A DNA stretch of 64,000 bases, from the NCBI GenBank assembly GCA_026770705.1, contig JANJGN010000006.1:14136001-14200000 (forward strand). Reading direction: 5' to 3'. This stretch comes from Isurus oxyrinchus. Taxonomy: Eukaryota. Position 1 is the stretch's first letter; the number at the start of each line of letters is the position of its first letter. Position numbers: made by a program. Of this stretch, positions 15,001-18,000 are shown in pieces.

Positions 15001-18000
15001 TCTAGAAAAGAAAAGAGAACTGTTAATGTTCTTCTTGCTTTCAATATATGTGCTAATGACTGCAATGCTCTAGAAAGATATAAATATTTTCATCATCTTC
15101 AAAGTTATGGTAGGATTTCACGATGTGTTTATTGGACAGGGATTTGTGGAGTTTAATTTCCTTCTCAATCTTATCTTTCTGGTGAGGTTTTGACACTCTG
15201 GAATGTGGAATAACTTTAACTGAAGGGACAGAAGAGTTCAAGGTCATCCTTAAAAGTACATCAAAAGATAAAGGTTTGGCTTAAATGAATCCAGTTAAGT
15301 TGGTAACTTTTCTTAAGAATGAAATATTATGTTTGCAAAAAGTTAATCAAATGGCGATCTGTTGACTTTTCGTAGATTCTCAGCAAAAGAATAAGGCTTT
15401 GAAAATTAAATATTAGGAAAACAACAACAGGTGGAGGGCTTCATACCAGGAGACTGGAAAATTGTACGGGGAGGGGGTGAACTTTGGGGTGAATTTTGAT
15501 ATCAGCGTGCAAGATGAGATGAAAAATGTTCAGGGTAGGAAAGTAGTAGGAGTTAAACGTGTTCAGAGCATGAGGAATGGAGTGAGGGGTGAGAGTGCTT
15601 CGGTTATTATGAACTTTGAAGGAGAGGCGCTGCCTGAAAAGGTGCACTTGGGATGTTTGAGATTTTTCGGTGAGATCATACGTTCCTCCTCCGTTGCGCT
15701 GTTTTAGTTGTCAGAGGATTGATTATGTGGTGGCTGTGTGCAGACGTAAAAGGAGATCTGGAAGGTGCGGAGGAGCTCATGATTACGGAAAATGTGGGGA
15801 AGAAGTGGAAGTGAAGCATTGTAACTATGGTGGTAAACGCAGTGCTGTTTATGGCGGGTGTGAGGAAAATATTAAAGCTCAAGAGGTACAGAAATCAAGA
15901 TAGAAGCAAAATACTGCAGATGCTGGAAATCAGCAATTGAGGATGGAGTGTAAGATGACTTATGCAGAGGCAATAAAAACTATGAGGGGATAGGCGGTAG
16001 TAGAGATAGATATTTTGAGAGATATGGGAAGGAATGCAGTGGAACCTTTGATTCTGACTCAGAATAAAGTTTCAACATCATCTGATCTTTTGGTGGTCGG
16101 TCAAGATAATTTCTTGGCCCTTATTACTGAAGTGATCAATTGTACTGTACAAACTCAAAGCAAAACAGAAAAAATGAAGATTATTGTTAACACAGCTGAG
16201 AAGTATCTCAATGTTTGTGGTATGTCCCATGAGAAAATAAGTGGAGCGCTCCTGTTATGTAATACAATGCAACCATCTCAACCCTCCCAGGTTAGCTGAT
16301 TTCATGATGAGTTCTTTATGGGATGCCAGAAGTATGATTGAAAATGGTCAAGAGTTTAAACGTTTTTTAGCTGATTTAATTGAAAAGCCAGATAGTATAT
16401 GTATTCAAGAAACTTGGTCAAAACCATGCTTAGATTTTGTGATCCAGGGATATGTGATAGTTCGGAAGCATAAGACTGTGGGCGATGGAAGGGGATGTGC
16501 TCTTTTTCTTAGAAATTCAGTAAATTATAGAATTATTAATTTAGATACTCATTTAGAATGCAATGTTGTTGAAATTTGGTGTCATTCTGATACTTTTCTT
16601 TTGATTAATTTTTATAATCCTTGTAAAGATCTTATTATTAAAGAATTAGAAGTCTTGATGTCAGGTGTCAAAAAGCCTATTATGTGGTGTGGGATAGTGG
16701 TCATATAAATAGAAATCGCGGGGCGGTGGGGGAGGCGGCAGACTTATTTGACCATTGTAATCTGGTGTGTTCGAATGATGGGAGGGATACTAGAAAAAAT
16801 GTTGGTGAAAATACTTTGTCATGCCTGGATCTAATGCTGGTTTCCAGTGCTTTAGCAGGATGATGCCAATGGGATGTTTATGAAGACTCTACTGTAGGAA
16901 GTAATCATTTTCCTATATGGGGAAGAGTAGGGCTGTGTTTGAATGAAGAAATAACTAAAGCGAATTCACAGTGGTGTTTTTATAAAGCACAATGGATGTT
17001 TTTTTGGAAGAGGTGTGCGAATAGCATTAAAGGCCTTGGATTTACAGAAAATGTGGATACTTTAAATAATGACTTATGTGATATATTGCTGGGTGTTGCA
17101 GAAGTGTCTATTCCATTAAATAAATGACTACAGAAGAAAAGAATTGTACCTTGGTGGGATGTGGTTTATGATTCGGCGATGAGGGAGAGGAATAAAGCCT
17201 TCAAATTGGTGCACAAAGCTAATACATTTGAAGCAGTATTGGATTATCATAGGAAGAGAGCTCGAGTTATTAGGGGTGAGAAAAAGAGGATTGGGGGAGT
17301 TACTGTGATATTGTTGGAAGGGATACATTGATAGGTGATGTTTGGGAGAAGATTAGGAGGATTAATGGAAACTTGTAAGATCAAAACTATTCCAGTCTTG
17401 GTGGATGGAGATGATGTTGCTAAAGCCAATCTGGAAAAGGCAAATATGTTGTCAAAGGCTTTTGCTAACATACATAGTGGTAATAATTTAGATCCTGAAT
17501 ATTGTTTCACAATATTGGGGGATGAGGTTTTAGCAGTATTTCTTGAGCTTTCTAATTTAGTATGGGAAAGGGGTACTTAGCCTACGAGTTGGAAACATGC
17601 TATTATAGTGCCAATTGGGAAGCCAGGAAAAGCTTTATCTAGTCTATCAGCATAGGCCCATAGCATTGACATCTAATATTTGTAAAATAATGGAGTACAT
17701 GGTTACTGGTCAACCCTGTTATTATTTAGAGAGCAAGCAGCTTCTGATGCCATATCAAAGTGGGTTGAGGAAGTTTTGTTCCACACTGGATCAAGTGATG
17801 AGGTTTGATACTGATATCAAGAAAGCTTTACATAATAAATAAATAAATCCTTATAGGAGTCTTCATTGATGTTGAAAAAGTATATGATATGCTGTGGAAA
17901 GAGGAGTTTTTATTTAAGGTTTGGGAATAGAAGGGTGCATGTTTAGTTAGGTACATGATTTCTTGGTAGAACGTATCATACAGGTGAGAGTGGTAGAGAA

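What the first reader, a model, noticed from the sequence alone, without database searches (positions are those of the whole stretch)
15020..15222. Polo-like kinase (PLK2/3) coding fragment embedded antisense in a Nimb LINE ORF1
Seen: Nimb ORF1 reads ...DPSRKEKR, is interrupted by ~203 bp, and resumes TEEFKVILK. The insert encodes the PLK N-lobe from VKVIP (catalytic Lys) through [13 protein letters not shown], with a small frameshifting deletion at CS/SL, no poly-A and no flanking splice signals. As I recall, vertebrate PLK2/3 genes have introns within this stretch, so it would be mRNA-derived. Residues are a PLK2/PLK3 mosaic. Inference: template-switch capture or RNA-templated break repair. 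If amplified with the LINE, its transcripts would be antisense to a cell-cycle/stress kinase mRNA.
Basis: partly seen in the sequence, partly recalled or inferred. Interest (0 to 1): 0.65.

Follow-up and report, generated by a model that had tools for sequence, protein, structure and literature searches.

The report
Shark PLK3 fragment inside dead LINE
A piece of about 203 bases of a shark's own PLK3 kinase gene sits backwards inside a decayed jumping-gene copy, most likely as a patch left by DNA break repair, which is an ordinary kind of genomic scar.

Summary
Window 15020-15222 (minus strand) encodes about residues 66-134 of elasmobranch PLK3. 66 of 68 aligned residues match Mustelus PLK3, tblastn E is 3e-28, and there is one small frameshifting deletion. 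The piece splits the gag-like ORF1 of a decayed non-LTR retrotransposon. None of 13 ORF1 relatives has anything between the basic patch and the EEFKV motif that flank it here.

It is PLK3, not a PLK2/3 mosaic. The 64 kb holds no other PLK-like piece and no second copy of the LINE or the insert. There is no poly(A) and no target-site duplication.

The insert is internal, antisense and flanked by continuous LINE sequence. Template-switch chimeras instead carry the foreign part at the 5' end in the same sense (PMC2104539). ORF1 shows about six times more decay per site than the insert (p about 0.02, small numbers), so the insert probably arrived after the LINE had died.

Best reading: an inert templated patch at a repaired double-strand break, like a class-2 templated sequence insertion. 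I could not test whether the donor was mRNA or genomic DNA, or whether other copies exist, because no shark genome was within reach. The finding is ordinary and of low interest.

The parts
15020..15222 (-). Fragment of PLK3 coding sequence (about residues 66-134 of shark PLK3: N-lobe from the beta3 lysine strand to just past the hinge). It carries one small frameshifting deletion. The last 2-10 bases at the high-coordinate end cannot be assigned with certainty to PLK or LINE.
   Evidence: PDB PLK2/PLK3 hits; Pfam Pkinase; 89-95% identity to elasmobranch PLK3; tblastn of 21 PLK proteins; pairwise alignments.
14863..16299 (+). LINE ORF1 (gag-like, with Cys/His knuckle region). It is broken by 5 in-frame stops, 1 frameshift and 1 insertion (the PLK3 piece).
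   Evidence: 26 distant relatives at 32-43% identity; tblastn bounds; hhalign of the pieces apart; alignment of 13 relatives; counts; zf-CCHC and gag-like/PRE_C2HC look-alikes of a relative.
16241..18950 (+). LINE ORF2 remnant (endonuclease-like N-terminal part, then reverse transcriptase). It is split into 10 stop-free pieces of 50 codons or more, lying in all three frames. The bounds are approximate.
   Evidence: Pfam RVT_1 3.3e-8 and 1.6e-3; Exo_endo_phos 0.037, below cut-off; PDB group II intron-type RT hits; piece counts.
19002..19097 (+). Tail of a different repeat, also present at 50275-50370. It marks the point by which the LINE of interest has ended or been cut.
   Evidence: Self-blastn 89.6% over 96 nt; sequences read.
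15220..15238 (-). Pyrimidine run ending in CAG directly 5' of the kinase reading. It looks like a splice acceptor, but it is explained by antisense purine-rich LINE codons plus PLK codons.
   Evidence: Read directly. Not a tested signal.

Best explanation
A non-LTR retrotransposon with gag-like ORF1, endonuclease and RT (I/Jockey-type architecture) inserted here and began to decay. Later, a double-strand break inside its ORF1 was repaired by end joining. The repair took in a patch of about 203 bp copied from the host's plk3 coding sequence, either from reverse-transcribed mRNA or from DNA. The orientation was left to chance and came out antisense. The patch has since decayed a little: two residue changes and one small frameshifting deletion. 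It does nothing. This is a templated sequence insertion of the class-2 kind, private to this LINE copy.

Shown: the identity of the piece, its bounds, the continuity of ORF1 on both sides, the lack of poly(A) and TSD, and the decay counts. Inferred: the order of events, the break-repair route, and that this copy is the only one.
For: 1. Identity: 66 of 68 residues match Mustelus PLK3, and 19 of 21 best proteins are named PLK3 or PLK3-like.

2. The insert is internal, with LINE sequence continuing on both sides. Relatives read basic patch then EEFKV with 0-4 residues between them, and 0 of 13 have an insert. hhalign places the downstream piece at residue 59 of relative P0045 (E 3.7e-4). The weak upstream match (E 0.16) places the last upstream codon at residue 58. 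The Met-to-core distance is about 68 codons longer than in 8 full-length relatives.

3. No poly(A), and no flanking direct repeat of 7 nt or more.

4. Size: 203 bp lies within the 73-414 bp range (median 191) of experimental templated insertions. Class-2 events lack TSD and poly(A) (PMC5110952, sections 4 and 9 read).

5. Decay: ORF1 has 5 stops over 60.3 stop-target sites, against 2 residue changes over 152.7 non-synonymous sites in the insert. The ratio is 6.3, one-sided p 0.022. This suggests the insert is younger than the LINE copy.

6. There is one copy of the LINE and one of the insert in the 64 kb. No protein in the big collections carries the read-through or the chimeric minus-strand ORF.
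Against: 1. The decay test rests on 7 events. It assumes that the host's PLK3 equals other sharks' at the two changed residues and that the source LINE was intact. By indels the picture reverses: 1 frameshift in about 0.2 kb of insert against 1 in about 1.2 kb of ORF1.

2. Copy number in the genome is unknown. One window cannot show that the insert is private.

3. The upstream ORF1 matches are weak (tblastn E 0.02-0.07; hhalign E 0.16), so 'no LINE bases lost' is only approximate.

4. The junctions show at most 2-3 ambiguous bases. There is no clear microhomology or filler to mark end joining.

5. The two negative protein searches are weak evidence, because such ORFs are rarely annotated.
Confidence: 0.65

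Rival explanations
1. Capture during retrotransposition. While this LINE was being copied into DNA, the polymerase left the LINE template, copied about 200 nt of plk3 mRNA, and returned to the LINE template at the next base. In the antisense orientation this is possible during second-strand synthesis or from an antisense template. If the progenitor stayed active, the chimera may then exist in several copies.
For: LINE reverse transcriptases do switch templates, and double switches are documented (PMC2104539, passages read). Antisense mRNA/LINE-1 chimeras exist and are ascribed to twin priming (PMC11838501, passages read). The insert lies in a LINE, where an RT was once at work.
Against: Published chimeras have the foreign RNA at the 5' end of a 5'-truncated LINE, in the same orientation (PMC2104539). 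Here the LINE goes on upstream without visible loss. That would need two precise switches and an antisense product. An insert that shifts the ORF1 frame makes a progenitor that cannot make its own ORF1 protein. The window holds no second copy. ORF1 looks more decayed than the insert.
Confidence: 0.15
2. The donor was genomic plk3 DNA, not mRNA. One exon, with a few bases of the upstream intron, was copied into the break by a DNA-templated repair route. This differs from the best explanation only in the donor.
For: On the minus strand a pyrimidine run plus CAG directly precedes the first kinase codon whose match is secure. The three residues before it do not match PLK3, with 4 of the first 6 aligned residues differing. 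That is what an intron end would give.
Against: The same bases read as purine-rich LINE ORF1 codons next to EEFKV, and two of them fit the preceding PLK3 alanine codon. Callorhinchus isoforms put an exon start at GGFA, only 18-19 codons upstream, so an intron here would leave an exon of under 60 nt. No donor-like GT follows the other end.
Confidence: 0.25
3. Remnant of a plk3 gene or paralogue that was overrun by repeats.
For: None beyond the presence of the piece.
Against: No other PLK-like stretch in the 64 kb scores better than E 0.02. The two weak spots at 5022-5276 and 6193-6264 lie antisense to a LINE tail and carry no kinase motifs. Both flanks of the piece are the same LINE ORF1 in register.
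Confidence: 0.02
4. Assembly or read chimera that joined plk3 cDNA or DNA to a LINE.
For: Short foreign inserts in repeats can be artefacts.
Against: The piece has two changes at residues identical in 7 of 7 elasmobranch PLK3 proteins, plus a frameshift. It is therefore a decayed copy, not the live gene. Both junctions sit within a single LINE gene in register.
Confidence: 0.03

Closest known systems
Class-2 templated sequence insertions / polymorphisms (Onozawa and Aplan; PMC5110952: abstract and sections 4, 5, 9 read)
   Same: A short patch (range 73-414 bp, median 191) copied from a distant, usually transcribed, locus. No target-site duplication and no poly(A). Either orientation occurs. 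The patch sits at a site with no relation to the donor.
   Different: Those were described in human cells and genomes, and this one is in an elasmobranch. The donor locus, an RNA origin and end-joining marks at the junctions could not be shown here.
LINE chimeric retrogenes by template switching (U6/L1 type; MINE of Magnaporthe; PMC2104539, passages read)
   Same: Host RNA sequence joined directly to LINE sequence, with no poly(A) between them.
   Different: In those the foreign part is 5' of a truncated LINE, in the same orientation, and the whole is flanked by direct repeats. Here the foreign part is internal and antisense, with LINE on both sides.
Antisense mRNA/LINE-1 chimeras ascribed to twin priming (PMC11838501, passages read)
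   Same: An mRNA fragment antisense to the adjoining LINE, without a first exon or splice features.
   Different: Twin priming gives an inversion at the 5' end of the insertion, not a piece nested between two contiguous parts of one ORF.
Processed pseudogene fragment
   Same: A decayed, non-functional copy of host coding sequence away from its gene.
   Different: No poly(A) and no TSD. It covers only about 70 of about 637 codons. It lies inside another element.

Membership tests
PLK3 (Polo-like kinase 3) coding sequence | Best similarity to PLK3 orthologues rather than other kinases | tested here: met
   19 of 21 best proteins are named PLK3 or PLK3-like, with elasmobranch ones 89-95% identical. 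PDB order is PLK2 and PLK3, then PLK1, then PLK4. No shark PLK2 came back, so the PLK3-versus-PLK2 call rests on the names and the identity gap (about 73% to human PLK2).
PLK3 (Polo-like kinase 3) coding sequence | Protein kinase domain by Pfam | tested here: inconclusive
   Pkinase E 1.4e-7, but 31.6 bits against a cut-off of 31.7. Only profile positions 29-81 of 263 are present.
PLK3 (Polo-like kinase 3) coding sequence | Whole gene: rest of kinase domain and polo-boxes nearby, with an open frame | tested here: not met
   No other PLK-like stretch in the 64 kb at E below 0.02. There is one frameshift in the piece. It is a fragment, not a gene.
Non-LTR retrotransposon (LINE) with gag-like ORF1 | Reverse transcriptase domain | tested here: met
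   RVT_1 33.9 bits, above the cut-off of 29.6. PDB hits to group II intron-type RTs.
Non-LTR retrotransposon (LINE) with gag-like ORF1 | AP-type endonuclease upstream of the RT | tested here: inconclusive
   Exo_endo_phos E 0.037, 14.2 bits against a cut-off of 24.5. No PDB hit.
Non-LTR retrotransposon (LINE) with gag-like ORF1 | ORF1 upstream of ORF2, related to ORF1 or gag-like proteins of other elements | tested here: met
   26 relatives, collinear tblastn. Relative P0040 has a weak zf-CCHC match and gag-like/PRE_C2HC and 'tick transposon' look-alikes.
Nimb clade of LINEs | Placement by RT phylogeny against typed reference elements (PMC11203168, passages read, lists Nimbus under the I superfamily by RT typing) | not testable with these tools
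No typed LINE reference set was at hand and the RT is in pieces.
Class-2 templated sequence insertion | No target-site duplication, no poly(A) or signal | tested here: met
   No flanking direct repeat of 7 nt or more. No A or T run at either junction other than the LINE's own purine-rich codons.
Class-2 templated sequence insertion | Size in the range seen for such patches | tested here: met
   About 203 bp against 73-414 bp, median 191 (PMC5110952, section 4).
Class-2 templated sequence insertion | Donor locus elsewhere and intact; RNA origin; end-joining marks | not testable with these tools
   No host genome was in reach. The junctions are ambiguous by only 2-10 bases.
Template-switch LINE chimera | Foreign part at the 5' end of a 5'-truncated LINE, in the same orientation | tested here: not met
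   The LINE continues on both sides, and the piece is antisense.
Template-switch LINE chimera | Several copies sharing the junctions | not testable with these tools
   One copy in the window. The genome was not in reach. Protein searches for the junction ORFs found nothing.

The most novel reading that the evidence does not exclude
The chimera arose while the LINE was being copied: a Nimb-type RT switched onto plk3 mRNA and back. It spread to further copies, or this TE-dense stretch is a small-RNA source locus. Either way its sense transcripts would yield antisense small RNAs against a stress and cell-cycle kinase mRNA.
Probability: 0.05. Interest if true: 0.5.

Novelty: new member of a known kind. 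Interest (0 to 1): 0.15.

Why it matters
It matters little by itself. It is one more example showing that short pieces of transcribed host genes get pasted into vertebrate genomes at repaired breaks, here in a cartilaginous fish, where such events have been little catalogued. It also gives a practical warning for annotation: a kinase-like hit of about 70 codons inside a repeat is not a gene. If the same junctions were found in many copies, or in small-RNA data, it would become an example of a LINE-borne antisense gene fragment.

Tried and rejected
1. Other plk exons in the window. tblastn of 21 PLK proteins found only chance-level hits elsewhere. The two best (5022-5276 and 6193-6264, minus strand) lie antisense to a LINE tail. 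Rejected.

2. A second copy of the LINE or the insert in the window: none.

3. Proteins carrying the + strand read-through (113 aa, longer proteins): 327 candidates, none scored. Short proteins like the 64-codon minus-strand ORF: none. Both negatives are weak evidence.

4. Names and taxa of the ORF1 relatives: the listing of cluster members answered that the database is off.

5. PLK3 intron positions from papers: two searches listed nothing usable. Only the exon start at GGFA could be inferred, from Callorhinchus isoforms.

6. The Nimb clade. One search and passages of two papers gave no way to test it here.

7. Rfam and tRNA scans of the window: no match.

I did not ask for supplementary files.

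Full report
**What is there.** I read window 14400-15900 and listed the ORFs. On the minus strand, 15020-15222 reads as a protein kinase N-lobe in two frames. I searched and compared the two frames apart.

The longer frame piece (59 codons) gave these matches:
- PDB PLK2 (4i5m, E 2.7e-20), PLK3 (4b6l, 2e-18), PLK1 (1e-12) and PLK4 (about 3e-4).
- Pfam Pkinase positions 29-81 of 263 (E 1.4e-7; 31.6 bits, a hair under the cut-off of 31.7).

The shorter frame piece ends in [13 protein letters not shown], which is identical to shark PLK3 residues 122-134. One small deletion shifts the frame between the two. I count one break and do not give its place. The window holds no N.

**Which kinase.** A search among longer proteins gave 21 hits at E 1e-5 or better out of 30 candidates.
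- The best seven are elasmobranch proteins (Mustelus, Cetorhinus, Heptranchias, Chiloscyllium, Rhinoraja, Mobula, Pristiophorus) at 89-95% identity.
- Five Callorhinchus entries follow at 84%.
- Amphibian and teleost PLK3 follow at 68-73%.
- 19 of the 21 are named PLK3 or PLK3-like, one 'PLK2-like' and one 'PLK'.

From VKVIP onward, 53 of 55 residues in the longer frame and 13 of 13 in the shorter one equal Mustelus PLK3. The two changed residues are identical in 7 of 7 elasmobranch PLK3 proteins. I saw this directly in the 3 elasmobranch rows of the 11 aligned and in the 3 sequences, and I infer the rest from the identities.

The piece is therefore a slightly decayed copy of elasmobranch PLK3, not a PLK2/PLK3 mosaic. 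It looks mixed only against the human proteins, where PLK2 scores a little above PLK3. The window is thus most likely from an elasmobranch. Nothing in it or among the fetched proteins was taken for human.

**No gene around it.** tblastn of all 21 proteins against the 64 kb hit this spot with every one (E 7e-17 to 3e-28). The best hit anywhere else had E 0.021. The two best outside spots (5022-5276 and 6193-6264, minus strand) lie antisense to a LINE tail and show no kinase motif. There are no polo-boxes and no further kinase exons, so this is not a gene remnant.

**The host element.** On the + strand, from about 14863 to about 18950, lie a gag-like ORF1 and an ORF2. ORF2 has a weak endonuclease match (Exo_endo_phos E 0.037, below cut-off) and a reverse transcriptase (RVT_1 3.3e-8, above cut-off; a second piece at 1.6e-3). 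The RT piece also hits group II intron-type RTs in the PDB. The endonuclease piece hits nothing there.

A full HMMER search with a stop-free 81-codon stretch of ORF1 found 26 relatives at 32-43% identity, the best at E 7.9e-9. They align collinearly to 15210-16293 in two frames. One of them has a weak zinc-knuckle match, and its atlas look-alikes are gag-like, PRE_C2HC and 'tick transposon' clusters, mostly arthropod.

The element is dead:
- ORF1 has 5 in-frame stops, 1 frameshift and the PLK insertion.
- ORF2 lies in 10 stop-free pieces of 50 codons or more, spread over three frames.

At 19002-19097 the tail of another repeat begins, 89.6% identical to 50275-50370. The LINE's own 3' end was not defined. 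The clade name Nimb is defined by RT phylogeny against typed references (PMC11203168, passages read) and could not be tested.

**Is ORF1 really interrupted?** Yes. Thirteen of the 26 relatives, chosen for N-terminal coverage, were aligned.
- All have the same N-terminal build: an acidic/Gly-Ser stretch, a W.KV-like spot, a basic patch, then directly EEFKV..KF...NP.KLTK. At most four residues lie between the patch and the motif, and 0 of 13 have an insert there.
- The window has the same build...KWTKVQ...SRKEKR, then the kinase piece, then (KG)TEEFKVILK.
- hhalign puts the downstream piece at residues 59-69 of relative P0045 (E 3.7e-4).
- The upstream match is weak (E 0.16; tblastn E 0.02-0.07). 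Counted on without gaps, it puts the last upstream codon at residue 58.
- Independently, eight relatives that start with Met match the query stretch from residue 135-144. In the window the same point lies 608 bases after the first Met codon, about 68 codons further.

The insert is thus extra, and little or no LINE sequence is missing. After the insert the ORF1 reading goes on in another frame.

**Junctions.**
- No A or T run lies at either end beyond the LINE's own purine-rich codons.
- No direct repeat of 7 nt or more flanks the insert. The six inverted and two direct 8-11 nt matches in 14960-15290 are scattered and look like chance.
- At the low-coordinate end the kinase match stops one base after the codon of T134.
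- At the high-coordinate end the secure match stops at the first Val of VKVIP. Two more bases fit the preceding Ala codon, and the next eight could be LINE or filler.
- Read on the minus strand, 15220-15238 is a pyrimidine run ending in CAG right before the kinase reading. The run is the antisense of purine-rich LINE codons next to EEFKV, so it need not be an intron end.

**mRNA or genomic donor?** This was not settled. No tool held shark genomic DNA. Two literature searches listed nothing with PLK3 intron positions (listings only). Five Callorhinchus entries share sequence from GGFARCYEMT on and differ before it, and a Scleropages entry does the same. That places an exon start there, 18-19 codons before the piece. 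So the piece does not begin at that junction. If it lay within one exon, that exon would need about 260 nt or more. I could not test whether a junction lies inside the piece.

**Mechanism.** Published LINE chimeras made by template switching have the foreign RNA at the 5' end of a 5'-truncated LINE, joined in the same orientation and flanked by direct repeats. Double switches are known (PMC2104539; abstract and background passages read). A recent catalogue reports antisense mRNA/LINE-1 chimeras without splice features and ascribes them to twin priming (PMC11838501, passages read). None of these patterns is an antisense piece nested between two contiguous parts of one ORF.

Such a piece is what a templated patch at a repaired double-strand break looks like. 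Experimental patches are 73-414 bp (median 191), enriched for transcribed donors and reduced by RT inhibitors. The natural class-2 events lack TSD and poly(A) (PMC5110952; abstract and sections 4, 5, 9 read).

**A rough clock points the same way.** ORF1 has 5 stops over 60.3 stop-target sites (0.083 per site). The insert has 2 residue changes over 152.7 non-synonymous sites (0.013 per site). The ratio is 6.3, with a one-sided conditional binomial p of 0.022. This rests on seven events. It assumes that the host's PLK3 equals other sharks' at those residues and that the source LINE was intact. By frameshifts the numbers go the other way (1 in about 0.2 kb against 1 in about 1.2 kb). I take it as a hint, not proof, that the insert arrived after the LINE copy had begun to decay.

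**Copy number and function.** The window has one copy of the LINE and one of the insert. Searches of the large protein collection found nothing for the + strand read-through (113 aa, longer proteins; 327 candidates, none scored) or for the 64-codon minus-strand ORF (short proteins). This is weak evidence, as such ORFs are seldom annotated.

The genome-wide count stayed unchecked. There is no evidence for transcription or for an antisense role. The surroundings are a mosaic of decayed mobile elements, which fits neutral DNA.

**Verdict.** It is a decayed 203-bp copy of the host's PLK3 coding sequence, nested antisense in ORF1 of a dead LINE, with no poly(A), no TSD and no partner exons. Most likely it is an inert break-repair patch of a known kind (confidence about 0.65). 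Capture during retrotransposition is possible but fits the anatomy poorly (about 0.15). Interest is low.

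Noticed in passing
window 20592-21602 (+) and 53044-53865 (+): Two related ORFs with a DDE_Tnp_4 (Harbinger/PIF-type) transposase domain (E 8e-31 and 1.5e-33). These are two copies of one DNA transposon family, about 32 kb apart. Weak tblastn hits at 20953-21033 and 53405-53485 fall inside them.
   Followed up: partly
window 865-2400 (+): The longest open reverse-transcriptase ORFs of the window (122 and 384 aa; RVT_1 E 2e-33). 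This is a different and much less decayed LINE than the one that holds the kinase piece.
   Followed up: partly
window 47793-48578 (+) and 26223-26897 (-): An integrase C-terminal/SH3 (Tf2-type) match at 47793-48578 (E 8e-11). An ORF at 26223-26897 has an LTR-retroelement-like look but no Pfam hit. Both are remnants of LTR-type, virus-like elements. I described them only and did not study them further.
   Followed up: no
window 19002-19097 and 50275-50370; also 11261-11683 (-), 5020-5163 (+), 49584-50009 (+): Tails of an abundant LINE family (ORFs reading ...RLGLFSLE.RRLRGD.IEV...) recur in both orientations. One tail abuts the 3' side of the LINE of interest.
   Followed up: partly
window 15892-15931 versus 45094-45129, 45411-45445, 63-96, 9698-9737: A 34-40 nt stretch just after the ORF1 knuckle region matches four other places in the window at 82-92%. 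It is a short shared repeat or a low-complexity stretch, and it is unexplained.
   Followed up: no
window 36760-37257 (+): An ORF with a weak Myb/SANT-like DNA-binding match (E 3.9e-4, below cut-off). It may be the partner protein of a Harbinger-type element.
   Followed up: no
window 15053-15247 (-): An ATG-started 64-codon ORF. It begins in antisense LINE sequence, runs through most of the kinase piece and ends at the stop that follows the frameshift. No similar short protein was found. It is probably meaningless.
   Followed up: yes
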